DNA of 46,868 nt, taken from NCBI GenBank assembly GCA_046759445.1, contig JBHICG010000024.1, positions 1 through 46,868 on the forward strand. Reading direction: 5' to 3'. Below, one piece after another: positions 15,901 through 29,534 of this stretch; position 1 is the stretch's first letter; every line of letters begins with the position of its first letter. The translations under genes were made by a program, and so were the position numbers. Source of the DNA: Candidatus Scalinduaceae bacterium (GTDB lineage: Bacteria; Planctomycetota; Brocadiia; Brocadiales; Scalinduaceae). Under the pieces are notes generated by a model that saw only the letters and a list, made by a program, of their open reading frames with translations, did no database searches and was not told the DNA's origin.

Positions 15901-15991
15901 TTTAATAATGATAACGCTCCTTTCTAGAAGTCTGATACCCCCAGCAATAAGAGTAAGATGTAAATAATGCCGGTTTATTCCGATTTACTGC

Positions 15992-18091
15992 TCATCCCGC
16001 AACCTCTATTTGGTCTTTCGCATCCAGGAAGGGCCTTTCAACGGGTATCTGAGAATGGATAATCTTCATAAGCTGGCCAAAAAGGATAATAATTAATCCA
16101 ATTGGTATCCCTATAATTGTAAGACAGGAGATCCACCCATAGATCTCCGTCAATTTAGCTATGAAGACAAATGCCTTGAACTGTTCCAGGTCTTTAGCCT
16201 CTTTCCATGATCTTTTTATCGCCCATACGGTAAGAATAACCAGCAAGGAAAAGATTGCTAAGAGACGCAGAGAGTATAAACAAATCTCCAGTTGAAATCT
16301 ACGGTTCTCTTTCTGTGATTCGCTAATATCTGCGCTCGTTTCCTGATAGATCATTGTCAATTCTTTATTATATTCTTTTAATTTGCTCAACGATTCTTCA
16401 TGTTCTTTTTTATATTTATCAAGATATTTTTGCTCCAAGAGACCATATATGGGTTCTAATTTACTAACTTTATCTTTCTCCCCTTTAGAATCCCATAGCT
16501 TCCGTAAATAAAAAAAAGTATTTAGATTGGCATTTATTTCCTTTTTGTCAGCTCCCGCCAAGATTATATTGTCTAATTCATGAAGGACTTCCATTTCATA
16601 GGCCATTTCTGCATCTTTAATACGTTGTAATTTTTGGTAAAGCATCCCTAAATAGACCGTCAATGAAACCCCATCAGGTGTAGGAAGGTCTTTACTCATT
16701 CCTAATTGTTCTGAAGGAAAAACTTTTATCTTTGAGGCATACCCTATTCCATGTTTCTCAATTATCCTTTCCAAAGGAGGGAATGCCTTATTATATAAAT
16801 TATTCTGAACGGCGAATTGGGCAATATCCAGCAATGCCGAAGCATCTTCCGAAGATGTAGCCTTTTCCAACACCGCAATCGCATCACCCATTCTTCCATT
16901 ATCCAGAGAATATTTTGCTATCTGCAAGAATTGAGTATGTTTCCTTGACAATTCAGTGGCTCTATGAATGACACTCGAAGCTAATTCTTCAAAGTTATTT
17001 TTCAGGGCAAAAGTGCAAATTTGGAGTAGTTCTGTTGGGTTTTTAGCCTGATTTCTGGCCGCTTGGAGCACCTTTAGTGAGAGGCCCGTCCATTGCTTTT
17101 TATAGAGAAACTGCGCTATTTGAATAAAGTTATCGCTGTTTTTCATAAAAGGCATGGCCTTTTCTATTGCTTGTTCTGTGTGATCAGCATCATCTTGATC
17201 AACAAAGAACTTGACCAGGCTCAAAAGTAAATCCAGGTAAGCTGGATTATAGCTATATCTTCTAAAGTCGTAATTCAAAACGGATTTAAAATGTGAGATA
17301 GCCTTAGTAAAGTCTCCCTTCTCTAGATAAAGACATCCTAACGTATAGGCATATTCGGGTCCACGTGTTTCTACCTCCTCCCAGAGGTGAAGATAAGGTT
17401 TTGAAATATTGATCCTCTTAATATTGATTTTATTCCTTTCCTTTCTTTTCCCCTCCTCTAGTTTAAAGATTGCCCTTTTAACATCATCCATTTTCATCAG
17501 GATATTAACCTTATCGAGCTTATATTCTATATGGTTAGGCCCCTTCATTGGTTCTTTAGATTGAGGAATGCCCTGGCCAAAGACAGGGAGGCTAAATAGA
17601 ATAAGAATGGCGGCTAAAGACGCAATTATCAACCATCTTCTCTCTTGGAAAAACTCTTTTTTCCAAAAGAGAAGAAAAAGCAATATATTTATCAGTATAA
17701 TGGGAAATAATATATTGAGCAGATACTCACTGAATAACCATTGAGAGAGTAAACCTAAAAAAGAGAAAAAATAAGTAAAGAAACCTGCGAGCCCGATCCT
17801 TTTTATGACAAAAAGGGCTGTTTTCATACCGATTAATCTTTCCTGAAGGGAGGCCCTACGTTCTTCCTCAACTTTAATCTTTGAAGTAAGATCGGTCTCC
17901 TCTTGTATGAGTTGTTGCTTTTCTTGATTAAATTCAGCTTCTATCTGCCCCTTTTTTTCTAGAAAAGTTTTTTGGTACGCCTGCTTTTGCTCCAATCCTT
18001 TTTCCTGTTCCTTTCGCTCCCCAAAAGACAATTCAGTCGAAAAGACGCACCAAACAATTAGCAATAAAGGTATCATCGCCCATTTTTTCAT
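15992..18091 (-). CDS. Polytopic membrane protein with coiled coils and TPR/alpha-solenoid domain
   Basis: N-terminal leader, coiled coil, several TM helices, TPR (YAYTLGCLYLEKGDFTKAISHFKSVL), C-terminal coiled coil and 2 TM. Probable start MKKWAM at 18091 (ORF track starts at 18130). Confidence 0.8.
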   Translation of the reverse strand: MKKWAMIPLLLIVWCVFSTELSFGERKEQEKGLEQKQAYQKTFLEKKGQIEAEFNQEKQQLIQEETDLTSKIKVEEERRASLQERLIGMKTALFVIKRIGLAGFFTYFFSFLGLLSQWLFSEYLLNILFPIILINILLFLLFWKKEFFQERRWLIIASLAAILILFSLPVFGQGIPQSKEPMKGPNHIEYKLDKVNILMKMDDVKRAIFKLEEGKRKERNKINIKRINISKPYLHLWEEVETRGPEYAYTLGCLYLEKGDFTKAISHFKSVLNYDFRRYSYNPAYLDLLLSLVKFFVDQDDADHTEQAIEKAMPFMKNSDNFIQIAQFLYKKQWTGLSLKVLQAARNQAKNPTELLQICTFALKNNFEELASSVIHRATELSRKHTQFLQIAKYSLDNGRMGDAIAVLEKATSSEDASALLDIAQFAVQNNLYNKAFPPLERIIEKHGIGYASKIKVFPSEQLGMSKDLPTPDGVSLTVYLGMLYQKLQRIKDAEMAYEMEVLHELDNIILAGADKKEINANLNTFFYLRKLWDSKGEKDKVSKLEPIYGLLEQKYLDKYKKEHEESLSKLKEYNKELTMIYQETSADISESQKENRRFQLEICLYSLRLLAIFSLLVILTVWAIKRSWKEAKDLEQFKAFVFIAKLTEIYGWISCLTIIGIPIGLIIILFGQLMKIIHSQIPVERPFLDAKDQIEVAG

Positions 18092-18152
18092 CTTTAACCC
18101 CCATAAGAAATTAGTAATAAAGATATCCACACCCCTCTTTGCTAACCTTAGA

Positions 18153-20030
18153 TTACTCTTCTTTTACATATTCTTCATAGATATACCCGTCCCCTTTGGA
18201 GGCTTTAACCTTTACCCAACTTCCGGTGACCTCTAATTTTTGCATCCGAGTTCCCACTTTAACTTCTTCCATTACTTCGGAAAGGGGGGTAGGGGATAAT
18301 CTAATCTCTACAAAATCTTTTTTACTTCCTCCTTGCCAACTCTGGACAATAATCCATACGGAATTTCCCTTATGCTTTTCTACTTCCTTGCCATCTTCAA
18401 CATAAACCGTATCTATCCGGCCCTCTTTTTCTTTCGGATATTCTTTAACTACATCTTCATACGCTTCAATCGTATCCGCGTCTTTTGCCTCTTTAGAAGC
18501 CAGCTCCTCAATTCTGCTTTTCGCCAACTGAGAAAAATCCCCATTTGGGTACGTTATTAGAAATTTTTCTAATGATTCAATGGTATCTTCGCCTAATGCA
18601 ACATTAAAATCCAAAACTTCAAGACTATCTACGGATTCTTGGTTATATTTACTTTGAGGATATTTTCTTTTAAAATCTCGATATGCCTCTTTTGTGTTTG
18701 TTTTGACAACAAGAATGAAGGATAACTCCTCTATCCTGTTTTTTATGAGTCCTATACGTTCTTCATTTTTTTCGTTTCTTAAATTTTCAGTCAGTAATTC
18801 AATCTCCTGGGTATTTAATAAGACGCTGAATTCCTTTTCATCAATCCCTCTTATTGCGTCTGCAACATATTTACCATCCGGATATTCATCCAGATATTTT
18901 TTATAAGAATCTACAGTATCTTTAGATTTGGTTTGATTGTATTTTATGCCTTCAATTATTTGTTTTGCTTCTGATACAAACTTGCCGTCAGGATAATTTA
19001 TTATATATCTTTCTAAAGATACAGTGTTGTTGTCATATTTTGCCTGAGCAAATATTAATTCCTCAATCCTGTTTTTAGCTTTCTCTATAAATGTACTTTC
19101 AGGATTATTATCCATCCAGCGCTTCAATCTATCAATGTTATTAAAAAAACTCTCATCCCTGAATGTTAATTCATCCATCTTCAACCTTACCTCTTCTGCA
19201 TATTTGCCATTCGGATTATTTCTCAAATACATTGAGTAGTTGTTAACCGTACCTTCTTCATTTGTTAAACCGTAATGTATGTCATCGGCCCTATCTTTGG
19301 CATCTTGAGCAAAACGGGAATCAGGATACTGGTCTACAAATCTTTGATATAGAGCTGCCTTTCCAGTGAGGCTGGTTTCTATGGCATTTTTCTCTTTTTG
19401 TATAATCTTCAGTACATTCTTTCCATTAACCCATCCTTGACCAGTGTTCGGTACATTGATTTGATACCAATTGCCACTAAAATCTAATAGTCTAAATTCC
19501 GTGGCAAAACTGGTTGTTTTGTGTATGCTATAGGAAAACATTTTTGGCTCTTTCAGAATCTTTTGATATGGTTTCACCATTATGTAAACAGGAACTTTTG
19601 GTTTTTCTATTGATTCAAATTTCTTTCCAATAGTCCTGTCTATACTCGTTCTTGCGTTTGTAATTAACGAATTAAGCTCTTTTAATTCTTCGTCGGTACC
19701 CAAAGGCTTTACGCCACTAGACAGACTAATAACGTTTTCGTATAGGGAAATGGCCTTATCATAATCGTGCAAAACTTCTTCAAAGATAAGTCCCAATTGA
19801 TAATAAGCCTCAAGATTTTCCGGTTTTCTTTTGATTGATTTGGTAAATGCTGTAATTGCTGAAGGATAATCACCATCTGTCTTCAACTGTTTACCGCTTT
19901 TTATTGAAGAGTTACTGAGAAATTTTTTCAAGAAATCCTGTGCATTGACATGACTTTGGGAAAGGCAAATTAATAGGAAGGATAATAGGAAAGATAATAT
20001 AAACGAAGTGTTTAAGTGTGCTTTCATCAT
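18153..20030 (-). CDS. Exported TPR + SH3b + tandem helical-repeat protein
   Basis: Signal peptide; N-terminal TPRs; SH3-like NWYQI...GWV and SWVKV...GYIY; about 8 repeats of Y..Y...YP.G.F...A..RI.EL. Confidence 0.85.
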   Translation of the reverse strand: MMKAHLNTSFILSFLLSFLLICLSQSHVNAQDFLKKFLSNSSIKSGKQLKTDGDYPSAITAFTKSIKRKPENLEAYYQLGLIFEEVLHDYDKAISLYENVISLSSGVKPLGTDEELKELNSLITNARTSIDRTIGKKFESIEKPKVPVYIMVKPYQKILKEPKMFSYSIHKTTSFATEFRLLDFSGNWYQINVPNTGQGWVNGKNVLKIIQKEKNAIETSLTGKAALYQRFVDQYPDSRFAQDAKDRADDIHYGLTNEEGTVNNYSMYLRNNPNGKYAEEVRLKMDELTFRDESFFNNIDRLKRWMDNNPESTFIEKAKNRIEELIFAQAKYDNNTVSLERYIINYPDGKFVSEAKQIIEGIKYNQTKSKDTVDSYKKYLDEYPDGKYVADAIRGIDEKEFSVLLNTQEIELLTENLRNEKNEERIGLIKNRIEELSFILVVKTNTKEAYRDFKRKYPQSKYNQESVDSLEVLDFNVALGEDTIESLEKFLITYPNGDFSQLAKSRIEELASKEAKDADTIEAYEDVVKEYPKEKEGRIDTVYVEDGKEVEKHKGNSVWIIVQSWQGGSKKDFVEIRLSPTPLSEVMEEVKVGTRMQKLEVTGSWVKVKASKGDGYIYEEYVKEE

Positions 20031-20074
20031 AATATCCTCTTTTTGTTTTTTTCTTTAAGTGTGTCGTGGTAATC

Positions 20075-21205
20075 TTAATTGACCAGAACTTTAACAACAT
20101 CATTGGATAACTCAGTTATTGTTACCTCAATATCCATGAAATATGTTGTACTAATGATATCAGCCAGTGTCTGTGCAGAACCGGTGAATTTTAGAAGGAA
20201 CAGGGCTTTGCTATCCTTGAAATATTGTTGATTTACATGTCTTACCCCAAAGAGGTAGCTTATCCTTCTTTTAAAATCCTTCAACTTGTTATAGTCATTT
20301 ACAGATATTTCCAGATTTATATCCCTTCCATTCAGCAGTGAAGATCCCCAGACTATTGTGATCTCATCTATCAATAAACTACTAATATTCTCTCCTGCCT
20401 TGCTGAAGGCATTCCTGTAAGCAGACTCTCTGTTTGCACCAACGCCATTAATCCTCGTACTCTGTTCCGTCACGATCTTACCAGTCTCGATACTGGTAAC
20501 TTTTATATCCAGGTTAACAATACACCCAATAAGACCAGACATTTCTACCTCAGTGATATTTTCCACCCTTCCCTTGCCTAACATGAGAATTTCGGCCTGC
20601 AACTTATCACTATCGAGACCAATGAAGTTCCCTTTCTCAAAGGCATTAAGAATTTCTTTCTCTGTAAGGTTACCTGTAGAGAAGGGATCAACAATATTAA
20701 ATCCCTTTTTCGTAAGGATTTTTGTAATATGCTCTGCCGCATAGGAATTTCTAATCGTTTCTTGCCCATCTTCATCAATTAGTAGAATAATCCGTGGATT
20801 TCCCATAGCTTCAATAAGGATCTTCATGGCAGTCAAGTCATCTTTTATTGGCTCTATTGATATAACTACATTTACCTTTAAAAGGATTGATTCTTTATCC
20901 TTCTGCTCTTCCAAGATCTCATAGGTATTGATATAACCCTTTGCCTTTGTCATTATTGAATCATCAATTGAAATAGCATTCTGTGTATAGCTTTCTGCCG
21001 TAACAAAGGTTCCAAGTACCTTCCTCACTGCGTTACGGAAAGCGTCTTCAATCGCTCTCTGCCTTGCTGGTGCAACCTTACCATCGTAGATAGGAGATTC
21101 TCCATAGACAATGATGGTTTCTGTTGGTGATTCCACTGCCCATAGGATAGATGTAAGAAAAGACAAGATAATGGTAAAAAGATAAATTGTTGATTTCTGT
21201 TTCAT
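20075..21205 (-). CDS. Exported protein with FlgT N-terminal-like domain
   Basis: GESPI...ARQRAIEDAFRNAVRKVLGTFV...AKGYI..YEILEE pattern; AAAGGA RBS before ATG 21205. Confidence 0.75.
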   Translation of the reverse strand: MKQKSTIYLFTIILSFLTSILWAVESPTETIIVYGESPIYDGKVAPARQRAIEDAFRNAVRKVLGTFVTAESYTQNAISIDDSIMTKAKGYINTYEILEEQKDKESILLKVNVVISIEPIKDDLTAMKILIEAMGNPRIILLIDEDGQETIRNSYAAEHITKILTKKGFNIVDPFSTGNLTEKEILNAFEKGNFIGLDSDKLQAEILMLGKGRVENITEVEMSGLIGCIVNLDIKVTSIETGKIVTEQSTRINGVGANRESAYRNAFSKAGENISSLLIDEITIVWGSSLLNGRDINLEISVNDYNKLKDFKRRISYLFGVRHVNQQYFKDSKALFLLKFTGSAQTLADIISTTYFMDIEVTITELSNDVVKVLVN

Positions 21206-21238
21206 AATAATTATCCTTTCTAATTTATAGACGTTCTT

Positions 21239-21260
21239 GGTGAGCAATGCACACCCTACA
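21239..21260 (-). repeat. GTAG-type REP
   Basis: Minus strand tGTAGggtgtgcattgctcacc: GTAG followed by an imperfect palindrome. Confidence 0.55.
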
Positions 21261-21328
21261 TCTGATTTTTTCTTACAATTATCAAATACAAATCTCTTGG
21301 ATAATATGTAATTATTTTGTGTCTAATG

Positions 21329-22990
21329 CTATCTGTGTAAATCTGTGGTTAAAAGATTGTTAGCCCCTTGATGTCCCGGTCTTAATTCCAACACTGTCTC
21401 AAAGCATTTCCTTGCATCAATTATTTCCCCAATAGCTTTATAGGAAAGCCCTAAGTAATAAAGAGAATCAACATAATAAGGCCCCTCATGAGAGACTCTG
21501 GTTAAGTTATTTATCGCCTCTGTGTACTTTTCCTGTTTTAAGAAACTTAATCCTAGAAAATATCTTGCCTGCCTTAATTCCGGGTTTTCCTGTAGAATTT
21601 CTGAAAAAATCTTTTCTGCCCTTTTGTCTTCATTCCTTTCCAAGAGAACTCTTCCAAGTCCAACTTTGGCATCTATGTAATCAGGTGAAATTTGCAGGGC
21701 TTCTTTATAATGACTTTCTGCATTATTAGGCTTACCAATTTTCAAATACGAGTTTCCAAGGTTGTAATGTGCAAGAAGATGAACAGGTTTAAGAGAAAGA
21801 ACACCACGATATCGTTCAATAGCCTTGTCAATGTAATTTACTTTGTGATAGGCATTTCCAAGTTGGAAGCCGGCATCTATATCCTTAGGGTTTCCCTTTA
21901 AGGATTTCTCAAGATGTTCTATAGACTTCTGAAAATTTTCAATATTGTAATAACTAAGTCCCAGAAAATAATGCGCGTCAGTATAATCATATCCAAGTTC
22001 TATGGCGGTATTCAATTCCTGAATGGCCCCTTTATAAAAGCCTTTATAAAAATACCATTCACCCAGTAGTTCATGTTCTATGCTAGATTCGGCGTATTTC
22101 AGATCGAACTGAAAAATTTCATCATTTCCTTCGTTTATGATATAGGCATTGTTATTGCAATAAGTAATGGATGAAGGCTGTTTAAGGAATTCCTTAACAA
22201 GAAGGTGTTCTTTTATCAATCTTCCCGTGTTATCAAACTGATAAAGGGTATTGTTTAGATAATCGGTAATAAAGAGTCTATCACTTGCATCAATGGCAAT
22301 ACCTGATGGTAACATTAGTTTATCTTCTCCATAATCAATCTTTTCAAATTCAAATATTTCACGTGTTGTGGTTATTTTTAAAATTTTTCCAAGTCCTTTA
22401 TCTATGACATAAATGTTTCCCTCTAAGTCTAAATCTAAAGAGATAACGGAAGAATCTTGCAGTTCCAGACCGATCTGAATGGACTCAATGGTCTTACCAT
22501 CAGGTTTGAATATGTGAACTTTAGGCCCTATCACGTCCAAAACATATATATTATTATCTGCATCCATGGCCACATCCACAGGACGTTCCATACTCCCACC
22601 AAATCTACCGATTCTCTTTTTGATATTTCCATCAGGATCAATAACAAGGATTGTACGAAGGTCAGGGTTGGCAATATATATATTGTCAGTGGAATCTATA
22701 CAAACTCCATAAGGTGTAAATGGTTTGTCTTTATAATCCAGTTTAACCTGGACAACTTCAATGTTTCTCGTTACCGGAACAATCTTTAACAATCTATGAT
22801 TGTCACCGTCTGCAATAATAATCTTTCCTTGTGAGTTTACGGTTATATCATTGTGAGTTCCCAGGGTAAGTTTTTTGTATACTCCAACCATATCAAAATA
22901 GGGTGTGCTGGTTTCTCCGAAGGAATTTAAAGCATATCCTGTGAATATAAAGAATGATATTAAGGCTATTTTTGATCTTAATGGTTTCAT
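21329..22990 (-). CDS. Exported NHL beta-propeller + TPR protein
   Basis: Repeats PYGVCIDSTDNIYI, PVDVAMDADNNIYV, PSGIAIDASDRLFI followed by several TPRs (AHYFLGLSY, AHYNLGNSY). Confidence 0.9.
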   Translation of the reverse strand: MKPLRSKIALISFFIFTGYALNSFGETSTPYFDMVGVYKKLTLGTHNDITVNSQGKIIIADGDNHRLLKIVPVTRNIEVVQVKLDYKDKPFTPYGVCIDSTDNIYIANPDLRTILVIDPDGNIKKRIGRFGGSMERPVDVAMDADNNIYVLDVIGPKVHIFKPDGKTIESIQIGLELQDSSVISLDLDLEGNIYVIDKGLGKILKITTTREIFEFEKIDYGEDKLMLPSGIAIDASDRLFITDYLNNTLYQFDNTGRLIKEHLLVKEFLKQPSSITYCNNNAYIINEGNDEIFQFDLKYAESSIEHELLGEWYFYKGFYKGAIQELNTAIELGYDYTDAHYFLGLSYYNIENFQKSIEHLEKSLKGNPKDIDAGFQLGNAYHKVNYIDKAIERYRGVLSLKPVHLLAHYNLGNSYLKIGKPNNAESHYKEALQISPDYIDAKVGLGRVLLERNEDKRAEKIFSEILQENPELRQARYFLGLSFLKQEKYTEAINNLTRVSHEGPYYVDSLYYLGLSYKAIGEIIDARKCFETVLELRPGHQGANNLLTTDLHR

Positions 22991-23072
22991 TGATTATACT
23001 GCCAATCAAAATCTAACAAAAGCATTCTAAAAAAAGAATTCTAACCTAAATGATTATTATGCCATTAACTTT

Positions 23073-24185
23073 CTACCTCTTTTTTGGTTCTATCTCACTA
23101 ATCGAGACATTAAACGACGATTCCCCAATTAAATTATTTCTTCTGTCATATTTAAGATCTCCATAATCGTCAACTGCCAAAATCACATGCTCGCTGGTAA
23201 ATGAGAAAGAAGAGCCGGGCTGTCTTATTCTTTCTCTTGGTTTAAAACGAAGTGAAACGGTACTTGGAACGTCTTGCGTAAGTTCAAGTGGTGGTATGTT
23301 GTTATGTCTACCTGTAGCTCCTGCTCTAATACCACTTGCCTCCTCAAGTCTATATTCATTGCCTCGAACGTCTGTTAAATATGTGGAAATTTGTGACTCC
23401 CATGCCTGCGTAGGTAAGCTCAAGTACAAATTTTGTTTGGTCTTATTAATATATTTAAGGAAAATTACTACATTATTGTTTTGCATTACCTGTAATCCCA
23501 TCACCTCCACTCTAAGGTCTTTAAACTCTTGGAATTTTGTACCTAACTTTGTTTGTTGTGCTGGTCGTTGAGAAGAACGTGCGGAAATTGCTGTTTCTAT
23601 GCTAGATTGCGTATTAACCATTTCCTTTTCCATAAGTTTTGCCACAATGCCTATTTTAGGAATGCTTGTCCTTGCCACTGCAAAGACCCTGGCGGTTTCA
23701 ATCCCAATCACTCTGGCATTGATTTTAATATTACTCTCAAGGTCTGTCATTGAACCTGTAACGATAGCGTCAATACCTAATATCTTACCTACGCTTTCCA
23801 TTGCCTTTGCATCAAGGAGTCCGCTCATTGTGAGCCTTTGCTCACTCAGTACCTTCATCAACTGCCGTCTCTCCACAACCTCAAACTGGCCTGGGCTGGT
23901 AAGAAACAGTTCTGTGATCAATTCCTCAGCCAAATGTTGACCGAAGGCTGTTACCACTCCATCAAGGTTGCTGAACTCCACCACGGCGATCTTCTTTTTT
24001 CCAGTCTTGATTATGTTGTTTGAGATTTGCTGTGCCAGTTGCTTTATACCCTCCTCTAAGTTCGAGGCAGCAAACGTTGATGAAGGATGAACACAGATAA
24101 GGCATAAAAACGCAACCATGATAATGAGGCTATATGACTTTTTCTTGATAATGACAACAAACATATGAGGTATTTGTTTGCTCAT
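23073..24185 (-). CDS. Exported FlgO/CsgG-fold protein with C-terminal beta-sandwich domain
   Basis: KIAVVEFSNLDG...FGQHLAEEL...FEVVERRQL..VLSEQ...GKILGIDAIVTGS...INARVI. Confidence 0.82.
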   Translation of the reverse strand: MSKQIPHMFVVIIKKKSYSLIIMVAFLCLICVHPSSTFAASNLEEGIKQLAQQISNNIIKTGKKKIAVVEFSNLDGVVTAFGQHLAEELITELFLTSPGQFEVVERRQLMKVLSEQRLTMSGLLDAKAMESVGKILGIDAIVTGSMTDLESNIKINARVIGIETARVFAVARTSIPKIGIVAKLMEKEMVNTQSSIETAISARSSQRPAQQTKLGTKFQEFKDLRVEVMGLQVMQNNNVVIFLKYINKTKQNLYLSLPTQAWESQISTYLTDVRGNEYRLEEASGIRAGATGRHNNIPPLELTQDVPSTVSLRFKPRERIRQPGSSFSFTSEHVILAVDDYGDLKYDRRNNLIGESSFNVSISEIEPKKR

Positions 24186-24290
24186 ATTGAGTTTCTCCTT
24201 TCAATTTTGGGAACGATATGGTGGTATTACATACCTGACCAAATCTGCGGTCTATCAGTGGCAGGCAAGTCAATTCTATAATGCTGATTA

Positions 24291-24349
24291 TTGCCAGGAT
24301 AACAGGATGAGCTATTCAATATAGTTTGGTTAAATCCATGTTACCCTGG
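24291..24349. repeat. CAGGATAACAGGAT inverted-repeat family, copy 1
   Basis: ttgccaggataacaggat ... atccatgttaccctgg; related copies at 41924-42014 and 44743-44770. Confidence 0.6.
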
Positions 24350-24375
24350 TGAGCGGTAAAGAGTTTTCTAAATTA

Positions 24376-25386
24376 TTAATCAATAACAACCACTACCTTG
24401 GCCTCTCCAAGAATACCGCCTTTGCTGTCAGCTTGAAAGATCTTCTGCGCGTCAGAGTCTGATACTACGATATCGGCATTGTATTTTCCATTAATTTTTT
24501 GAGCCTTGATAATCAGTGGATTATTGCCGATACGGGCCACCTGCTTTGCTGCATCAATACTCTTCCTGTAACCCGTAAGACCCTCCTCAATAGTAGCATT
24601 CGGATTAGCACTGGCCACATCGTATACCGATTCTCCTTTTTCATCAAGTACCCTGGGGTACATGGCTGGTTTGGCTCCCAATCCCATTGCATCGATGATG
24701 AGCCCTGTGTAATTCTCAGCTTTTTTAGTGATCGACTCCTGCGCGGGTTCAATAGCTGATGATATCGCACTCCTCTTTGAGTGACTTACGACTCTTACAT
24801 TTCGTACTCTTTCCATTTGCACAGGTAAAAGGACAGAACCAAGCCCTTTTGCCCCATCCATGGACATCTTCATCATAACCTGATAGCTTCCATCTTCGAA
24901 CTGTTTGATCTCTTCTACTTCAGCGTTTTTAACCATACCTGACACTCTGGTGCGCACTACTCTATTTTCGTTAATATAGTTTCTGGTGGTGGATTCAGCA
25001 TCCACTCTAACCTCATTGGCCATTTCAACCATTCTGCCATAAGCTTCATCTATAGCCGCTCTCTTTGACCTCACCCTGGCCTGAGCAGCGCTAACAACGT
25101 CAGGTGGCATAACACCGTCACCAACTGAATAAATGACCCTGTTTTCCCAATCAATCCTTCCTATCATGTCACCACCTTCAAGAACATTGACCTGTTCTAC
25201 TACTTGTTTGCCAGTTTCGAGATTAGTGGTATTTACTGATGTTTCAGTCTCCATGGAGCCTTTGTTTTCTTCCTGAGAATAAACATTTGAAGTGCCAAAC
25301 ATAGCTAAAGACATAATCAAACTAAAAATACAACTATTCAAAAAGACCTGAAAAATATTTGTTTTCCTAAGATAATTGTTCCTCAT
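24376..25386 (-). CDS. Exported LPP20/FlgP-like domain protein
   Basis: IDWENRVIYSVGDG...ARVRSKRAAIDEAY...VSGMVKNA, then YTGLIIDA...PAMYPRV; GGAGGA RBS before ATG 25386. Confidence 0.75.
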   Translation of the reverse strand: MRNNYLRKTNIFQVFLNSCIFSLIMSLAMFGTSNVYSQEENKGSMETETSVNTTNLETGKQVVEQVNVLEGGDMIGRIDWENRVIYSVGDGVMPPDVVSAAQARVRSKRAAIDEAYGRMVEMANEVRVDAESTTRNYINENRVVRTRVSGMVKNAEVEEIKQFEDGSYQVMMKMSMDGAKGLGSVLLPVQMERVRNVRVVSHSKRSAISSAIEPAQESITKKAENYTGLIIDAMGLGAKPAMYPRVLDEKGESVYDVASANPNATIEEGLTGYRKSIDAAKQVARIGNNPLIIKAQKINGKYNADIVVSDSDAQKIFQADSKGGILGEAKVVVVID

Positions 25387-25551
25387 TTTACTTTCCTCCA
25401 TTTCTGATTGTTTTAATTTATAGAAATTTCAAGTCATAAATGTAAACATTCTTTTACGTGATAACTGATCTGTATTAAAGATTACTAAAGACTTACTATC
25501 ATGTCATATTACATCACCTCCTTTAACATATATATGATGAATTTTTCATGC

Positions 25552-27825
25552 TTATTGTTCAATTTTTGATCTTATTTTTCTTGCTACAATTTCTGCAAGG
25601 TCATTAATCTTCTTTTTCCCATGAGTTTTATGGTGTTCAATAGTTACAATTTCTGTTGTTTTGACATTAACAACTCGGATATCTACTTCTAAAGTATTTT
25701 CAAAGATTCTGTAACTTCCATATATAATATAGTCTGCCTTCGCTGCCTTTCCTATATTCATTGCATTAACGGAATCAGATAGCTTGTAGAATCCAATTTC
25801 CATTGATTTTGCTTCTGCGTCCAGTGTAAAGCTATTGATAATCTTCAAATCTTGTTTTTCTACTAATTTCTGTCCTATAATCCAGGCAATGGCTTCACCT
25901 TCTCCTATCCTTGTTAGATGTCCGCCATCAAATGAAAGAGAAAACAGAAGAATTGTTGCTGAGCTTTTACCATCATTTATCTCAGGCTTACTAGAAATAA
26001 TTTCCATGTAGTAATGGGCAAGCTCTTCATCTTGTCTAAAATCAATTACTTTTCTTAGAAAAGATTTGGCATCATTTTCTTTATCTAACCTCCAGGATAA
26101 AACACCAAGGTTAAAGAGGGTATCACTGTTTTCCGGTTCTAAGGATAGAGCCTTTTGAAAATACTCACTTGATTTTTCAATTTTACCTTCACTGAGAAAG
26201 CCGATGGCAAGGGCGTTGTTAGCCCTGGCTTTTTGCCAGTTAAGTGCGTCATTAATTTCAAGGGCTTGATAATACTCTGTAAGAGCCTCTTCCTTCTTGC
26301 CTTCTGTAAAAAGGATATCTCCTTGTACAACATAACTCATCACATTTTTGGTATCCCCTACAAGAGATATTTTGATCATTTCACGAGCCTTATCTATATC
26401 TCCTTTCTCAAAATATAAAGCAGCCAAACCATCATAGCCCAATCCAAGTTGATTATTATCATTTACTATTAACTCTTCAAAAATTTTCATCGCTTCCTGA
26501 GATTTTCCTGATTTATAAATTTTATAAGCATCTTCATATTGTTTAACCAAATAGGTGTTTTCAGGGTCTGTAAAGAATGAATAATCAATTGCAGAATTAT
26601 ATGAAGACCAATTAAACCATGTGAGATATCCAATAATAAGAATAACAGAAACACCCAGCATGAGAGAATATTTCTTAAAATTTAAGGTAAAGGCAGTGAG
26701 AATATTTGAAGAAGTGTTCGTTATATAGACTCTTGCTGCCTCATCAAGAATCTTTTCTTCTTTTGTTGCAATTGTAGTAGCAGGATCACCATAATGTATA
26801 TAGCTTGCCCATAGAAGATCTCCTAAATCTCTTTCCTTAAGCACCTCATTTTTGGCTTTCTGGAGAGATTTTCCGACGCTTTCCCCAAGAATTAGTTCTT
26901 TATAAAATTTAGATGCGAAACTTGCACTTCCTTCATCGTGAATAACCCATAAAGGGCCTATAAAGTTCTGGACACCTGACATAAGGAAACCGTTTCCTAT
27001 CCCAAAGGTCTTTTCTTCATATAGATATCCTGTTTCCCAATTGGTTGTGGCCAGTGATTGACAAGCGTTGGAAAATACAAGTATGGGGCTTGTATCCATC
27101 CGTCCCATTTCTTGTGAGGTTAGTATTCCTTCCTTAAGAATCCATCCACTTCTTTCAGGATTCTTTTCATCAAAAAAAGCATGGCCAATGTAATGGATTA
27201 GATCCTTGTTTTTCATTTCTGAAATCAAGCTTAGTTTGTCAGCCTGCCTTCCTCCTATCAGTTCAATTTCTATATTGGGATTATCTTCTAAGATCACACA
27301 TAAGGATTCAGCTTCATGCTGAGCATGTTTAAGGCTTTCTGTTGGGTCGATGATGATAAGCATTTTCAAGGGGGCTTGACTATCTTCTCTATGTTGTCTT
27401 TTCCGGAGGAATTGATCTGTGCGAACTTGTCTGCCAATCATAAATTTTAAGGTTAAGAAGTCTTTCCCATCGAAACAGAGTTCCCATGGAATGTAGATCA
27501 ATTGATCATCAAGTTTTAAATAAAGTTCTGTATTCTCTCCCTTTTGTAGATATCTTTGAACATTTGCAGGTAAAAGTTGTGTGAACAGAATGCTTCCTAT
27601 CTTCTTTAATTCCTCCTGAACGATCTGTCCAGCTTTGTTGTCCATCTCATAAAACATCTTATTTGCAAGAAGCGTAATCCGGTTGATCTCTCTACAAATT
27701 CCATCTAGAAATTCTTTTTCAACCTTAATTTCACCTTTTGAGGAGATGGGCCCCTTTTCCTCTATGTCTACAATGTTTGTGTTTCCATGACGATATATAG
27801 TTATGTACTTAGGCATATTGGCCAA
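25552..27825 (-). CDS. Membrane-anchored CHAT (caspase/HetF-like) protease with periplasmic TPRs and C-terminal FlgO/CsgG-like domain
   Basis: YIPWEL, IHYIGH (catalytic His) and LVFSNACQS (catalytic Cys), WASYIHYGDP; one TM (YSLMLGVSVILIIGYLTWF); TPRs; IGKAAKADYIIYGSY...VDIRVVNVKT. TTG 27825 is 9 nt after AGGAGG (ORF track starts at 27834). Confidence 0.9.
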   Translation of the reverse strand: MANMPKYITIYRHGNTNIVDIEEKGPISSKGEIKVEKEFLDGICREINRITLLANKMFYEMDNKAGQIVQEELKKIGSILFTQLLPANVQRYLQKGENTELYLKLDDQLIYIPWELCFDGKDFLTLKFMIGRQVRTDQFLRKRQHREDSQAPLKMLIIIDPTESLKHAQHEAESLCVILEDNPNIEIELIGGRQADKLSLISEMKNKDLIHYIGHAFFDEKNPERSGWILKEGILTSQEMGRMDTSPILVFSNACQSLATTNWETGYLYEEKTFGIGNGFLMSGVQNFIGPLWVIHDEGSASFASKFYKELILGESVGKSLQKAKNEVLKERDLGDLLWASYIHYGDPATTIATKEEKILDEAARVYITNTSSNILTAFTLNFKKYSLMLGVSVILIIGYLTWFNWSSYNSAIDYSFFTDPENTYLVKQYEDAYKIYKSGKSQEAMKIFEELIVNDNNQLGLGYDGLAALYFEKGDIDKAREMIKISLVGDTKNVMSYVVQGDILFTEGKKEEALTEYYQALEINDALNWQKARANNALAIGFLSEGKIEKSSEYFQKALSLEPENSDTLFNLGVLSWRLDKENDAKSFLRKVIDFRQDEELAHYYMEIISSKPEINDGKSSATILLFSLSFDGGHLTRIGEGEAIAWIIGQKLVEKQDLKIINSFTLDAEAKSMEIGFYKLSDSVNAMNIGKAAKADYIIYGSYRIFENTLEVDIRVVNVKTTEIVTIEHHKTHGKKKINDLAEIVARKIRSKIEQ

Positions 27826-27839
27826 TAGAAACAACCTCC

Positions 27840-28532
27840 TTATTTTTTTTCGAGTGGTAAAAAACGAAATCTCATTTCTAAATCTTCCTTGGGGATTTTG
27901 ATCGTATAATAACCCATGGTTATATTGGGAAATTCGGCGTTGCCATGGCTTGAAGTGTTCCTGGAGAGAAGGAGTCGGTTATCCATGTAGAGGGTAATTC
28001 TTGCTTTCTTTAATGGGATTTCATCTTTCATTATAAGAACTTTCATTGATGCCCTAATACCTTCTCCGCGAATAAGCTCAACCTTGATATTAATATTTTC
28101 TATCTTTTGCTCAATATTAAGGCTTTCCTCTTTTTCTTCCATTCCTTTTCTAAAGGCATGCGCAGGGATAAGATTATTGCCAATGTTTACTTCAACGCCT
28201 TCTGGTAGAAGGCTGGTCTTAACAAATTTTAAACCTCGTTCTGTAAGAGATATTATGTATTCGGTAACCTTTTTTTGGGTTGATACGGTTCTCTCTCTTT
28301 CTGATACCAACTTAATAACTTTCTCCATTAATTCTGCTGGAACAGGAGAATTTTCATCTTGTGACATGGCCCTTAATGATCGTTTAAAATGTACAACCTC
28401 TTTTAGGCAAGGATCACAATCAATCAGGTGTTTCTCTATTACTTCTTTCTCATCACCAATAATGGCGCCCACCGTATAGTTATAAAGCTCCTGATCTTTT
28501 GGACATTCTTTAGTATTTTGTTCATTTGTCAT
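27840..28532 (-). CDS. zf-HC2 (ZAS) anti-sigma factor, soluble, with C-terminal beta-sandwich
   Basis: C-P...EKHLIDCDPC (HxxxCxxC); no TM; lies directly after the ECF sigma gene. Confidence 0.85.
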   Translation of the reverse strand: MTNEQNTKECPKDQELYNYTVGAIIGDEKEVIEKHLIDCDPCLKEVVHFKRSLRAMSQDENSPVPAELMEKVIKLVSERERTVSTQKKVTEYIISLTERGLKFVKTSLLPEGVEVNIGNNLIPAHAFRKGMEEKEESLNIEQKIENINIKVELIRGEGIRASMKVLIMKDEIPLKKARITLYMDNRLLLSRNTSSHGNAEFPNITMGYYTIKIPKEDLEMRFRFLPLEKK

Positions 28533-28589
28533 AACATCATGCTTTCCATATAGCCACAGTTCACATTTCCTTATAATTAATAAATAATT

Positions 28590-29534
28590 TTAAGAAATTT
28601 GTTGTTCTCTGTTCTGTAAATCATTTAATATCTCATTTAATCTTGCCCTGGCGTTCTTAATTTTTGATGACACTGTTCCTACCGACACATTGAGAAGTTT
28701 AGCTATTTCCCTATAAGATACCTTAGGGGAAGACTCCCGATATTTCTTCAGGAGTTTTTCCTTCTGTTTCTTTCTCCATAATACTTTTCTTTCCAGTTCA
28801 TTCTTATTAATAACCAATTGCTCTACTTCTATGGTACTTTTAAACTTATTATTCTTTAGTTTCTTAATATGCTTTTCATAGATAAGTATCCAGTAGTTAA
28901 TCTTATCCAACTCCTCTCTCTTCTTTTTGTAAAGTTCATAACGTTTTGATAGGGATTCTTCCAGATTAAATATATTTTCTGTAGTCTCTTGCAGATTCCT
29001 TCCTGAAATCCTTGAAATGACCCTAATATCTTCAGATTCTATGTCAATCTCCGAAAAGGAGAGAAGGTTAAGATATATCCTTTCGTCATCATCCAATCTT
29101 TTTATTGCGACCTCAATCTTTCTTAGATCTTCTTTTTCCTCTATTTCTTCCTTTGTGGTGGATATAGGGTCTTTCAGAATATCTCTCATTACCATTTCAC
29201 CTACTCCTTCATTGCCTTGGAGCGGGAAATCTATGGAATATATGGACATCTCAACATCCGGTTTGCGTATCCATTCTTTAAAAAGGTGATCTAATATTAG
29301 AAACTGAAAAGAACGGATTTTGCACTCTCCACGAAAAGTAATAAATCTCTTGTAGATTCTATCCTTCTCAAAACAGTAACAGTAAAAGTCCGCAGCCCTT
29401 TCTTCGTCTAGCTTATGAACCTTTATAGGAAAATTATAAATATCTTCTCCAAAGATATCCTGGAATGTCCTTATAGCTTGGATATCTCCTTTACAACAAA
29501 GGCTTAAAAGGCTCTTTAAATCGTCGAGTTCCAG
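28590..29534 (-). CDS. ECF-type sigma-70 factor with long insertion before the region-4 HTH; CTG start
   Basis: The frame stays open 95 codons upstream of ATG 29249 and encodes a region-2-like segment (DEERAADFYCY...FRGECKIRSF...ILDHLFKEWIRK). AAGGAG lies 7 nt before CTG 29534, with an in-frame TAA just upstream. C-terminal SYREIAKLLNVSVGTVSSKIKNARARL. Confidence 0.87.
   Translation of the reverse strand: MELDDLKSLLSLCCKGDIQAIRTFQDIFGEDIYNFPIKVHKLDEERAADFYCYCFEKDRIYKRFITFRGECKIRSFQFLILDHLFKEWIRKPDVEMSIYSIDFPLQGNEGVGEMVMRDILKDPISTTKEEIEEKEDLRKIEVAIKRLDDDERIYLNLLSFSEIDIESEDIRVISRISGRNLQETTENIFNLEESLSKRYELYKKKREELDKINYWILIYEKHIKKLKNNKFKSTIEVEQLVINKNELERKVLWRKKQKEKLLKKYRESSPKVSYREIAKLLNVSVGTVSSKIKNARARLNEILNDLQNREQQIS

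What the first reader, a model, noticed from the sequence alone, without database searches (positions are those of the whole stretch)
25552..29534. ECF sigma / zinc anti-sigma / membrane CHAT protease triad: candidate CRISPR-free, caspase-gated trans-envelope signalling system
Seen: three consecutive genes, with the anti-sigma stop codon overlapping the CHAT gene's AGGAGG. They encode an ECF sigma, a zf-HC2 anti-sigma with no TM helix, and a CHAT protease. The protease has an intact His (IHYIGH)/Cys (NACQS) dyad at its N-terminus, one TM helix, then TPRs and a FlgO/CsgG-like domain. Known: CHAT proteases cleave sigma-associated inhibitors in type III-E CRISPR (Csx29 cuts Csx30, which binds an RpoE-like sigma), and cyanobacterial HetF acts on PatU3. 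Inferred: a periplasmic cue oligomerises the protease, which cuts the soluble anti-sigma and releases sigma, replacing the usual DegS/RseP route. No cas genes or array occur in the window.
Basis: partly seen in the sequence, partly recalled or inferred. Interest (0 to 1): 0.88.

Follow-up and report, generated by a model that had tools for sequence, protein, structure and literature searches.

The report
Sigma factor gated by membrane caspase-like protease
Three adjacent genes of an anammox-type bacterium encode a sigma factor, its soluble zinc-finger inhibitor and a membrane-anchored caspase-like protease; they travel together in many bacterial phyla, which suggests an undescribed way of switching genes on by cutting the inhibitor.

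Summary
On the minus strand lie an ECF sigma gene (28590-29534, CTG start), a soluble zinc-finger anti-sigma gene (27840-28532) and a CHAT protease gene (25552-27834). The protease has a cytoplasmic N-terminal CHAT domain (His218/Cys258), one membrane helix, then TPRs and a weakly FlgO/CsgG-like domain outside.

The trio is conserved. Of 80 loci fetched with relatives of the CHAT domain, 52 also carry homologues of both the sigma and the anti-sigma, 49 in the same order and strand. They carry labels from Scalindua, Nitrospirota, Binatia, Desulfobacterota-like bacteria, Omnitrophota and others.

The CHAT domain is constant while the part behind it varies (membrane helix plus TPR or other domains, or a soluble STAND ATPase), as expected for a signal input. 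The anti-sigma family has a nearly invariant arginine (R128) in its only low-confidence internal loop. HetF, which has the same architecture, cuts its substrate after an arginine.

Best reading (about 0.55): a sensor-activated CHAT protease cuts the soluble anti-sigma and frees sigma. Cleavage and binding are untested, because the complex predictor was unavailable.

I found no paper describing this trio. Earlier notes of this scan report similar modules on other DNA. It is a new variant of a known kind.

The parts
28590..29534 (-). ECF-type sigma factor gene, 314 aa, CTG start at 29534-29532 preceded by AAGGAG (29547-29542)
   Evidence: The frame is open over 28590-29546. TIGR02937 scores 48.7 bits against a cut-off of 42.9. 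A family profile hits solved ECF sigmas (SigW, sigma-E, SigH) at E down to 3e-13. CTG is conserved in G024.
29235..29477 (-). Sigma region 2 (about aa 20-100); lost if translation started at the first ATG (29249)
   Evidence: Alignment A3. The profile match to solved ECF sigmas covers profile positions 2-160.
28731..29039 (-). Insert of about 100 residues (about aa 166-268), Lys/Glu-rich, between the first helices of sigma region 4 and the final helix-turn-helix. It is present only in the long-sigma subfamily.
   Evidence: In alignment A3, 16 long sigmas (298-330 aa) carry it and 8 short ones (about 200 aa) lack it. PDB profile matches split into positions 2-160 and 263-296. Its fold was not predicted.
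28635..28730 (-). Sigma region 4 helix-turn-helix (about aa 269-300)
   Evidence: Pfam Sigma70_r4_2 at aa 273-299, 29.5 bits against a cut-off of 25.7.
27840..28532 (-). Soluble ZAS-type anti-sigma factor gene, 230 aa: helical N-domain (aa 13-82) and beta-rich C-domain (aa 88-225)
   Evidence: AF2 model, pLDDT 84. Profile hits to RsiW, DdvA N-domain, RsrA and ChrR. No hydrophobic helix.
28407..28430 (-). Zinc motif H35-x3-C39-x2-C42
   Evidence: Invariant in 29 of 29 sequences. In the 123-sequence set: H 122, C 121, C 121.
28143..28166 (-). Loop P123-G130 (IPAHAFRKG) holding R128 (codon 28149-28151): candidate cleavage site
   Evidence: R128 is invariant in 29 of 29 and present in 118 of 123 family members. 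Residues 125-129 are the only internal segment with pLDDT under 50. That it is cut is inference.
25552..27834 (-). Membrane CHAT protease gene, 760 aa from TTG 27834. TTG 27825 (9 nt after AGGAGG) or ATG 27816 are likelier starts.
   Evidence: Close homologues have 755-764 aa.
26785..27600 (-). CHAT domain (aa 79-350) with His218 (27181-27183) and Cys258 (27061-27063)
   Evidence: PF12770 at E 2.8e-31. The dyad is invariant in 28 of 28. The AF2 model has pTM 0.82. Its best fold matches are separase, Csx29, SAVED-CHAT, DdvA and gingipain R.
26608..26670 (-). Single membrane helix (aa 389-409)
   Evidence: Hydropathy 1.85. There are 2 Lys in the 15 residues before it, and no basic and 2 acidic residues in the 15 after it.
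26017..26532 (-). TPR region (about aa 435-606), predicted to lie outside the cytoplasm
   Evidence: Several Pfam TPR families. The topology is inferred.
25555..25980 (-). C-terminal domain (about aa 619-760), weakly FlgO/CsgG/LpoB-like
   Evidence: FlgO at E 0.002, below the cut-off. BLASTP E 0.002 to the gene at 23073-24185. Homologues carry PF03783/PF13036.
14449..25401 (-). Seven same-strand downstream genes, all with hydrophobic N-termini: unknown 341 aa; CsgG/FlgO-like 370 aa; NHL+TPR; FlgT_N/LipL46-like; TPR/YfiO+SH3; TPR; unknown 483 aa. They are possible sensed partners or regulon members.
   Evidence: Their link to the trio is not shown. CsgG/LpoB-like genes recur downstream in some other lineages.

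Best explanation
This is a three-part signalling module. The ECF sigma factor is held inactive by a soluble, zinc-binding class I anti-sigma factor. The third protein is a sensor-protease. Its TPR and FlgO/CsgG-like part lies outside the cytoplasmic membrane and reads an envelope cue. Its N-terminal CHAT (caspase/separase-type) domain lies in the cytoplasm.

On activation, the CHAT domain cuts the anti-sigma factor. The most likely site is after the nearly invariant Arg128, in a flexible loop of the anti-sigma's C-terminal beta domain. The damaged inhibitor is then lost and sigma is free to direct transcription. No DegS/RseP-type membrane proteolysis is needed, because the anti-sigma is not in the membrane.

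Shown here: the gene content, the domain architecture, the conserved catalytic dyad, the conserved synteny, the modular sensor end and the conserved Arg loop. Inferred: topology, binding, cleavage, its site, the cue and the regulon.
For: Synteny.
- Among 80 loci fetched with a CHAT-domain alignment, iterated profiles of the window's sigma and anti-sigma found both partners in 52.
- 49 of the 52 have the order sigma, anti-sigma, CHAT on one strand. Two are divergent (L041, L042) and one has the pair downstream (L048).
- Among the 74 loci with more than 1600 nt upstream, 49 have the trio.
- By record title, the 52 are labelled: Scalindua 2, Nitrospirota 2, Binatia 5, delta/Thermodesulfobacteriota 11, Methylomirabilota 1, Entotheonella 1, Omnitrophota 15, Planctomycetales 2, unnamed 'bacterium' 12, and one with a doubtful enterobacterial label.
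- The sigma and anti-sigma genes often overlap by 4 nt.

Reciprocity. In five other genomes all 8 anti-sigma copies share a contig with one of the 8 strong CHAT hits. 7 of 8 lie immediately upstream of it and 1 lies 4 kb away.

Modularity. The CHAT domain is constant while what follows it varies: a membrane helix plus TPR, CsgG-like, FlgT_C or unknown domains, or no membrane helix plus an AAA_16 STAND ATPase with TPR.

Catalytic residues. H218 and C258 are invariant in 28 of 28. The fold model is closest to separase and Csx29.

Substrate candidate.
- R128 is present in 118 of 123 anti-sigma family members, about as conserved as the zinc ligands.
- It lies in the model's only low-confidence internal loop.

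Precedents.
- HetF has the same CHAT, membrane helix, periplasmic TPR layout and cuts PatU3 after Arg117, before Ser118 (PMC9457339 and PMC8406250, passages). The family consensus here is R followed by S/G.
- Csx29 cuts Csx30 in a small flexible loop of its C-terminal domain, while the Csx30 N-domain binds the sigma factor (PMC10028731, passages).

Weak expression hint. Contigs of two RNA-library runs from one study, 90-99% identical, lie on parts of all three genes. They include 29228-29544, upstream of the first ATG.
Against: - No cleavage, binding or activity has been shown.
- The complex prediction could not be run.
- Co-location fits equally well with the CHAT gene being a target of the sigma factor. 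ECF sigmas usually transcribe their own operon.
- 28 of the 80 loci lack the pair. In many of these the CHAT frame runs on for roughly 300 residues upstream of the match. Cyclase-, kinase- and Macro-fused relatives turned up in the protein search. So the CHAT domain is not tied to sigma control in all relatives.
- Cutting after R128 would leave the sigma-binding N-domain intact, so a further degradation step must be assumed, as for Csx30 and RseA.
- No fused anti-sigma-CHAT protein appeared among the best 150 profile hits.
- No shared ECF-type promoter motif was found upstream of the sigma genes beyond what shuffled sequences give.
- Among 41 related genomes the cassette was found in only 3, and in one of these it is decayed. 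It is therefore dispensable.
- The RNA-library contigs may include DNA and come from relatives, not from this strain.
Confidence: 0.55

Rival explanations
1. The CHAT protein is an output, not an input. The anti-sigma is a thiol/zinc redox switch of the RsrA or ChrR kind that releases sigma on oxidative or electrophile stress. The sigma factor then transcribes its own operon, including a membrane CHAT protease that acts on envelope-related or other cytoplasmic substrates.
For: The Hx3Cx2C motif is invariant, and the family profile reaches RsrA and ChrR. ECF operons commonly include their target genes (established knowledge of ECF autoregulation). The same-strand downstream genes in the window are envelope proteins.
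Against: Most ZAS anti-sigmas are not redox sensors (established knowledge). The pairing is one-to-one in genomes with 2-3 paralogous modules. The sensor end of the CHAT protein is swapped while the sigma/anti-sigma pair is kept, which is what an input component would show. The invariant Arg in an exposed loop has no role in a redox model.
Confidence: 0.17
2. The CHAT protein regulates the pair without cutting the anti-sigma. Either it tethers the soluble anti-sigma:sigma complex to the membrane through the anti-sigma's beta domain and releases it on a conformational signal, or its substrate is the sigma factor itself, for example the roughly 100-residue insert of the long-sigma subfamily.
For: The anti-sigma's beta domain carries further nearly invariant residues (R178, S190, Y209) that could form a docking face. 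The long sigmas have an unexplained insert.
Against: The catalytic His and Cys are invariant in 28 of 28, which argues for catalysis. The short-sigma subfamily has the same anti-sigma and CHAT partners without the insert, so the insert cannot be the general substrate.
Confidence: 0.13
3. It is an anti-phage or other conflict system. A caspase-like protease senses an invader, at the envelope or through a STAND ATPase in the soluble forms. It then switches on defence genes through the sigma factor, as proposed for DdvA/DdvS, CalpL/T/S and Csx29/Csx30, or it kills the cell by broad proteolysis.
For: The patchy distribution and a decayed copy among close relatives resemble accessory genes. The STAND-fused variants resemble conflict-system architectures. 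All characterised protease/soluble-anti-sigma/ECF trios that I found are defence-linked (PMC10028731 and PMC11506125, read in part; CalpLTS preprints, search listing only).
Against: PADLOC gave no meaningful match for any of the five proteins scanned. The window's neighbours are recN and envelope or housekeeping genes, with no cas or known defence genes. This rival concerns the biological role and is compatible with the proposed mechanism.
Confidence: 0.12

Closest known systems
HetF-PatU3 of Anabaena sp. PCC 7120 (PMC9457339, PMC8406250; passages read)
   Same: The protease has the same layout: an N-terminal cytoplasmic CHAT domain, one membrane helix and a periplasmic TPR domain. HetF cuts a cytoplasmic inhibitor protein at a single site after an arginine (R117|S118). 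Here the candidate substrate has a nearly invariant Arg followed mostly by Ser or Gly.
   Different: PatU3 is an inhibitor of cell division and heterocyst development, not an anti-sigma factor, and no sigma factor is part of that pathway as described. Orthology of the window's protein to HetF was not tested (no HetF sequence was at hand).
DdvA-DdvS of Myxococcus xanthus (PMC11506125; abstract and Discussion part 1 read)
   Same: An ECF sigma is controlled by a zinc-binding class I anti-sigma domain that is functionally tied to a TPR-CHAT module. CHAT proteolysis is proposed as the trigger. The family profile of the window's anti-sigma hits the DdvA N-domain (E 8.5e-4), and the CHAT model hits DdvA.
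   Different: In DdvA the anti-sigma domain, the membrane helix and the TPR-CHAT are one polypeptide. Its CHAT is periplasmic with an incomplete active site, and RseP is still needed. Here the anti-sigma is a separate soluble protein, the CHAT is cytoplasmic and N-terminal, and the TPRs alone are outside.
Type III-E craspase: Cas7-11-Csx29 cutting Csx30, which inhibits CASP-sigma (PMC10028731; passages read)
   Same: A CHAT protease cuts a soluble inhibitor of an ECF-like sigma factor in a small flexible loop of the inhibitor's C-terminal domain, while its N-domain binds sigma. Csx29 is among the best fold matches of the CHAT model (E about 1e-13).
   Different: Csx29 is activated by RNA-guided Cas7-11 and has N-terminal TPRs. 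Here there is no cas gene or array in the window, the sensor is a membrane-spanning or STAND module, and the anti-sigma is a ZAS protein. Similarity of the anti-sigma to Csx30 was not tested.
CalpL-CalpT-CalpS (type III CRISPR SAVED-Lon protease, anti-sigma, ECF-like sigma; seen only as abstracts in the search listing)
   Same: A tripartite logic of signal-activated protease, soluble anti-sigma and ECF-like sigma.
   Different: The protease is of Lon type, activated by a cyclic oligoadenylate through a SAVED domain. It is CRISPR-linked.
DegS/RseP-RseA-sigma-E regulated intramembrane proteolysis (textbook; described in PMC10028731 passages)
   Same: [quoted passage not shown]
   Different: RseA is a membrane protein cut first in the periplasm and then in the membrane. 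Here the anti-sigma has no membrane helix, and a single membrane-spanning protease would carry the signal across.
ECF54 group context (PMC8999054 section 3.3, passage; it cites Casas-Pastor 2021 and Huang 2015)
   Same: The ECF literature has noted CHAT-domain proteins in the conserved neighbourhood of an ECF group and proposed control by proteolysis.
   Different: ECF54 is described as lacking an anti-sigma factor and is actinobacterial. Here a ZAS anti-sigma is always present. Whether the window's sigma falls into any numbered ECF group was not tested. The main text of Casas-Pastor 2021 does not contain the word CHAT, and its supplements were not read.

Membership tests
ECF (group IV) sigma-70 factors | Regions 2 and 4 only, recognised by the family model | tested here: met
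   TIGR02937 scores 48.7 bits against a cut-off of 42.9 over aa 20-302. Sigma70_r4_2 scores 29.5 against 25.7. The profile hits solved ECF sigmas at E 3e-13. This is met only with the CTG start.
ECF (group IV) sigma-70 factors | Compact size (about 170-220 aa) with a short linker between regions 2 and 4 | tested here: not met
   The protein has 314 aa. A roughly 100-residue insert lies between the first part of region 4 and the helix-turn-helix. The short-sigma subfamily of the same module is about 200 aa.
Class I zinc-binding anti-sigma factors (ZAS) | Hx3Cx2C motif in an N-terminal helical anti-sigma domain | tested here: met
   H35, C39 and C42 are invariant. The AF2 model has four helices at aa 13-82. 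The profile hits RsiW, DdvA N-domain, RsrA and ChrR.
Class I zinc-binding anti-sigma factors (ZAS) | Pfam zf-HC2 (PF13490) or NCBIfam anti-sigma model above its cut-off | tested here: not met
   zf-HC2 scores 13.7 bits against a cut-off of 22.2. NF052375 scores 30.9 bits against a cut-off of 100.
Class I zinc-binding anti-sigma factors (ZAS) | Binds and inhibits the cognate sigma factor | not testable with these tools
Adjacency and 4-nt gene overlaps in relatives are only suggestive.
CHAT domain proteases (PF12770, separase/craspase type, clan CD) | Family model above its cut-off, and the fold | tested here: met
   PF12770 scores 109.5 bits against a cut-off of 24. The AF2 model has pTM 0.82. 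Foldseek matches separase and Csx29 at E 2.5e-14 to 1e-13.
CHAT domain proteases (PF12770, separase/craspase type, clan CD) | Catalytic His-Cys dyad present | tested here: met
   H218 and C258 are invariant in 16 of 16 and 28 of 28.
CHAT domain proteases (PF12770, separase/craspase type, clan CD) | Proteolytic activity | not testable with these tools
   This needs an enzyme assay.
HetF-type membrane CHAT proteases | N-terminal cytoplasmic CHAT, one membrane helix, periplasmic TPR | tested here: met
   compared with the domain scheme described in PMC8406250 and PMC9457339 (passages). The topology here is predicted, not measured.
HetF-type membrane CHAT proteases | Sequence orthology to HetF, with a PatU3-like substrate | not tested
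   No HetF or PatU3 sequence was fetched.
DdvA-type transmembrane anti-sigma with periplasmic TPR-CHAT | Anti-sigma domain, membrane helix and periplasmic TPR-CHAT on one chain | tested here: not met
   Here they are separate genes, and the CHAT is N-terminal and precedes the membrane helix. No fused form appeared among the best 150 profile hits.
Type III-E CRISPR craspase module | Association with Cas7-11 (gRAMP) and a CRISPR array | tested here: not met
   No cas family appeared in the Pfam or NCBIfam scans of the window's ORFs, and no array was found. The rest of the genome was not searched for cas genes.

The most novel reading that the evidence does not exclude
The module may represent a third general route of ECF sigma activation, alongside regulated intramembrane proteolysis and partner switching. 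In it a 'sensor-caspase' with an exchangeable sensor cuts a dedicated family of soluble ZAS anti-sigma factors. The sensor can be periplasmic TPR/CsgG-like domains reached through one membrane helix, or a cytoplasmic STAND ATPase. The cut falls at one invariant arginine in an exposed loop, so a single protein carries an envelope or cytoplasmic signal to transcription. The route would be spread over at least eight differently labelled bacterial lineages and would be independent of CRISPR. HetF-PatU3, Csx29-Csx30 and DdvA would then be special cases of one old design.
Probability: 0.45. Interest if true: 0.8.

Novelty: new variant of a known kind. Interest (0 to 1): 0.68.

Why it matters
ECF sigma factors are among the main signalling devices of bacteria, and the input is unknown for many of their groups.

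If the reading is right, one membrane-spanning caspase-like protease replaces the two-protease DegS/RseP relay. The substrate site (Arg128) is predictable from sequence, so the pathway can be tested directly with three small constructs.

It would also link three separately studied systems (HetF in cyanobacterial development, craspase in CRISPR defence, DdvA in myxobacterial defence) to one common design. It would give a function to a sizeable family of unannotated proteins of about 230 residues: about 94 full-length cluster representatives among the best 150 profile hits.

The module could also serve as an orthogonal protease-gated transcription switch.

Tried and rejected
- **Complex prediction.** The queue was full, and the tool was declared unavailable. 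Nothing was folded, so binding remains open.
- **Reverse neighbourhood search.** A four-sequence alignment only re-found three known loci. I replaced it with whole-genome searches of five carrier genomes.
- **Fusions.** The profile search of 1.84 billion representatives with the anti-sigma alignment gave full-length matches only in proteins of 194-301 aa. The many giant proteins in the list match only the C-terminal beta-sandwich repeat, so I disregarded them.
- **Shared ECF promoter.** Counting 5-mer/spacer/4-mer pairs upstream of the sigma genes gave nothing above shuffled controls for the long-sigma group (maximum 5 of 22; shuffles 4-5). In the short-sigma group one pair occurs in 11 of 29 (shuffles 5-7), but those loci are close kin.
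- **Promoter and terminator scans.** The sigma-70 promoter and terminator scan of 22900-29900 was at chance level (26 sites against 23.1 +/- 4.6).
- **Anti-sigma fold search.** It gave only weak, multi-domain Ig-like matches (TM about 0.25), so I name no fold for the C-domain.
- **PADLOC.** No meaningful defence-system match.
- **Protein-pattern search.** The single-protein search found only one true orthologue.
- **TPR noise.** The whole-protein search of relatives was swamped by TPR matches.
- **RNA-library contigs.** They cover parts of all three genes. They cannot show strand, ends or co-transcription, and they may hold DNA.
- **Earlier scan notes.** Nothing was on record for this place or for the anti-sigma sequence.

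Full report
**What is there**

The finding lies on the minus strand of a 36%-GC window. Its closest public relative is a Candidatus Scalindua genome bin, 92% identical at protein level. Three genes follow each other.

*Sigma factor.*
- The first gene has an open frame from 29546 to the stop at 28590. Its first ATG, GTG or TTG is at 29249, which would give a 219-residue protein without sigma region 2.
- Read from CTG at 29534, seven bases after AAGGAG, it gives 314 residues. These pass the NCBIfam ECF model TIGR02937 (48.7 bits, cut-off 42.9, aa 20-302) and Pfam Sigma70_r4_2.
- In the relative G024 the CTG and the 95 codons before the first ATG are conserved as protein, while the preceding ATC is ATA.
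- ATG-started homologues from other phyla align to this N-terminus.

*Anti-sigma factor.*
- The second gene (27840-28532, 230 aa) has the motif H35-x3-C39-x2-C42 and no hydrophobic segment.
- Pfam zf-HC2 is below its threshold (E 0.07). A profile of 29 family members reaches the solved anti-sigma domains of RsiW (4e-5), DdvA (8.5e-4), RsrA and ChrR.
- An AlphaFold model (pLDDT 84) shows four N-terminal helices followed by a beta-rich domain.

*CHAT protein.*
- The third gene (25552-27834) starts just after an AAGGAGG that overlaps the anti-sigma stop codon. TTG 27825 or ATG 27816 are likelier starts than TTG 27834.
- It has a Pfam CHAT domain (E 2.8e-31, aa 79-350).
- It has a single hydrophobic helix at 389-409, with two lysines before it and acidic residues after it.
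- TPRs lie at about 435-606.
- The C-terminal domain resembles FlgO/CsgG only weakly.
- There is no N-terminal signal sequence.

No cas family and no repeat array were found in the window.

**Is the trio more than chance?**

*Close kin.* With the window's own proteins as queries, the orthologous cassette turned up in only 3 of 41 related genomes: G000, G024 and G023. In G023 it is decayed:
- the sigma N-half is fused to the anti-sigma C-half;
- the CHAT gene is in two pieces;
- the next two genes are missing;
- the NHL-TPR gene is split.

So the module is accessory in this family.

*More distant relatives.* The picture is different.
- A word-indexed search with the CHAT part gave 106 relatives, all with an N-terminal CHAT followed by varied domains.
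- An alignment of 16 of them was used to fetch 80 loci from one genome per species.
- I translated all frames of these loci and searched them with the window's sigma and anti-sigma, then with profiles iterated three times.
- 52 of the 80 loci hold both partners.
- 49 have the order sigma, anti-sigma, CHAT on one strand. Two are divergent and one has the pair downstream.
- One of the 52 is the decayed G023 copy. One (L039) has both partner genes split by frame breaks.
- Of the 74 loci with more than 1600 nt upstream, 49 have the trio.
- Already with the single window sequences, the sigma hits 21 further loci at E 1e-40 or better and the anti-sigma hits 49 frames, nearly all directly upstream of the CHAT gene.
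- The record titles name Scalindua, Nitrospirota, Binatia, delta/Thermodesulfobacteriota, Methylomirabilota, Entotheonella, Omnitrophota, Planctomycetales and unnamed bacteria.

*The reverse direction.* Five carrier genomes held 8 anti-sigma copies and 8 strong CHAT copies, paired one to one on the same contigs. 7 of 8 pairs are adjacent, including genomes with two and three paralogous modules.

*Loci without the pair.* 28 loci lack it.
- Three have too little upstream sequence.
- In many others the CHAT frame runs on for about 300 residues upstream of the match. These may be the cyclase- or kinase-fused forms seen in the protein search, which also found Macro-fused Asgard forms. I did not scan these loci to confirm that.

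**Anatomy that bears on mechanism**

(a) *The input end is modular.* Among trio-linked CHAT proteins the CHAT domain is constant. It is followed by one of these:
- one membrane helix plus TPRs, with or without a CsgG/LpoB-like domain;
- a membrane helix plus an unknown domain;
- a membrane helix plus FlgT_C;
- no membrane helix but an AAA_16 STAND ATPase with TPRs (six loci of about 1240 aa).

A constant enzymatic domain with swapped sensor domains in a constant sigma/anti-sigma context is what an input component would show. It also argues that the CHAT domain is cytoplasmic.

(b) *The catalytic residues are kept.* H214, H218 and C258 are invariant in 28 of 28 trio-linked sequences. The model of residues 1-395 (pLDDT 80, pTM 0.82) is closest to separase, Csx29, SAVED-CHAT, DdvA and the Arg-specific gingipain R.

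(c) *The anti-sigma family has a candidate cut site.*
- In 29 sequences the invariant residues are the three zinc ligands, R128, S190 and Y209.
- I added 94 full-length cluster representatives from a profile search of 1.84 billion proteins. In the resulting 123 sequences, R128 is present in 118, within a motif P-A-P-[VA]-[LYF]-R-[SG].
- In the model, residues 125-129 are the only internal stretch with pLDDT below 50.
- None of the 123 has a convincing membrane helix; one is borderline.

(d) *There are two subfamilies*.
- The window's subfamily has long sigmas (298-330 aa) with a Lys/Glu-rich insert of about 100 residues. Solved ECF sigmas align on both sides of the insert (profile positions 2-160 and 263-296).
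- The other subfamily, mostly Omnitrophota, has ordinary sigmas of about 200 aa.
- Because both have the same anti-sigma and CHAT partners, the insert is not needed for the core mechanism. I could not fold it, and it remains unexplained.

**Mechanism proposed**

An envelope cue acts on the TPR/FlgO-like ectodomain. The cytoplasmic CHAT domain becomes active and cuts the soluble anti-sigma in the R128 loop. The inhibitor is destabilised and sigma is released.

Two published systems make each step plausible.
- HetF of Anabaena has the same CHAT, membrane helix, periplasmic TPR layout. Its isolated CHAT domain cuts the cytoplasmic inhibitor PatU3 between R117 and S118, and R117 substitutions block cutting (PMC9457339 and PMC8406250, passages).
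- In type III-E CRISPR, Csx29 cuts Csx30 in a small flexible loop of its C-terminal domain, while the N-domain binds the sigma factor. The authors note that further degradation is probably needed (PMC10028731, passages).

DdvA/DdvS shows a ZAS domain and a TPR-CHAT working together on an ECF sigma. There they are on one chain and the CHAT is periplasmic (PMC11506125, abstract and Discussion). CalpL/T/S is another protease, anti-sigma, sigma trio (abstracts in the search listing only).

**What speaks against it**

- Nothing biochemical is known.
- Gene adjacency alone cannot tell an input from a target.
- A cut at R128 leaves the sigma-binding domain whole.
- No fusion of the two proteins was seen.
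- I found no shared promoter motif.

The rivals are a redox-type ZAS switch with the protease as an output, a non-cleaving tether or a cut in sigma itself, and a defence role. The defence role is compatible with the mechanism.

**Context and expression**

Downstream on the same strand lie seven genes whose products all begin with hydrophobic segments:
- unknown, 341 aa;
- CsgG/FlgO-like;
- NHL+TPR;
- FlgT_N/LipL46-like;
- TPR/YfiO+SH3;
- TPR;
- unknown, 483 aa.

CsgG/LpoB-like genes also follow the module in the two Nitrospirota loci and in an unnamed lineage. In Binatia and Omnitrophota other genes follow. So an envelope assembly of such proteins is a candidate for what is sensed or regulated, but this is open.

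Contigs from two RNA libraries of one study, 90-99% identical to the window, lie on parts of all three genes and on 29228-29544. This is a weak hint of expression in relatives, and no proof.

**Novelty**

My literature searches found no description of an ECF sigma, soluble ZAS anti-sigma and N-terminal-CHAT membrane protease trio.

The nearest statement is that ECF54 has CHAT, carboxypeptidase and subtilase neighbours and no anti-sigma (PMC8999054, passage). The main text of the ECF re-classification paper does not contain the word CHAT. Its supplements were not read and may list such a context.

Earlier notes of this scan describe similar CHAT-linked sigma/anti-sigma modules on other DNA. Notably, e1-1086576 describes a soluble zinc-finger anti-sigma with CHAT proteases, and e1-4028405 describes a similar set. 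These are unchecked leads that I did not test.

I class the finding as a new variant of a known kind: protease-gated release of an ECF sigma. It has a predictable substrate site, which makes it directly testable.

Noticed in passing
G000 contig C12 (L109:2517-9589): A second sigma/anti-sigma/CHAT cluster of a different build lies in the same genome. It has an ECF-like sigma (206 aa), a zf-HC2 anti-sigma fused to DUF4384 and a trypsin-like peptidase (704 aa), and a 1363-aa protein with many TPRs, a PDZ domain and a C-terminal CHAT. The genome has four CHAT genes in all.
   Followed up: partly
L024 (G023 contig C151) 1272-5948: A decayed copy of the cassette sits in a related genome. The sigma N-half is fused in frame to the anti-sigma C-half (324 aa). 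The CHAT gene is in two pieces (386 and 219 aa). The two following genes are absent and the NHL-TPR gene is split. This may be real decay or an assembly artefact of the bin.
   Followed up: partly
window 28731-29039: The sigma factor has a Lys/Glu-rich insert of about 100 residues between the first helices of region 4 and the final helix-turn-helix. It is conserved in the long-sigma subfamily across four or more lineages and absent from the short-sigma subfamily. The first 30 residues of the insert look by eye like a second, degenerate helix-turn-helix. That impression was not tested.
   Followed up: partly
loci L061, L066, L081, L083, L086, L091 and proteins P0033-P0068: Relatives of the same CHAT domain that lack the sigma pair are fused to other domains. 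These include class 3 adenylate cyclase (PF00211), Ser/Thr kinase or, in Asgard archaea, a Macro domain, often with the same TPR and CsgG/LpoB-like tail. The CHAT domain may gate other outputs there.
   Followed up: no
window 14449-25401: A run of seven same-strand genes for predicted exported proteins with FlgO/CsgG-, FlgT_N/LipL46-, NHL-, TPR-, YfiO- and SH3-like parts. Two of them have no family match at all: 24376-25401 and 14449-15900.
   Followed up: partly
window 5631-8816: A 1061-aa protein joins a cyclic-nucleotide-binding domain, GAF, a sigma-54 activator AAA+ domain and a 4Fe-4S binding motif. This is an unusual combination for an enhancer-binding protein.
   Followed up: no
window 32515-32835: A small RRM-type RNA-binding protein (106 aa) whose tail is built from 3.5 copies of a 15-nt tandem repeat encoding Gly/Arg/Pro-rich units.
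   Followed up: no
window 33623-35728: A 701-aa protein combines ScdA_N, NnrS-like and three DUF1858 stretches with a weak haem-copper oxidase subunit I match. It is possibly linked to nitric oxide handling in this anammox-type organism.
   Followed up: no
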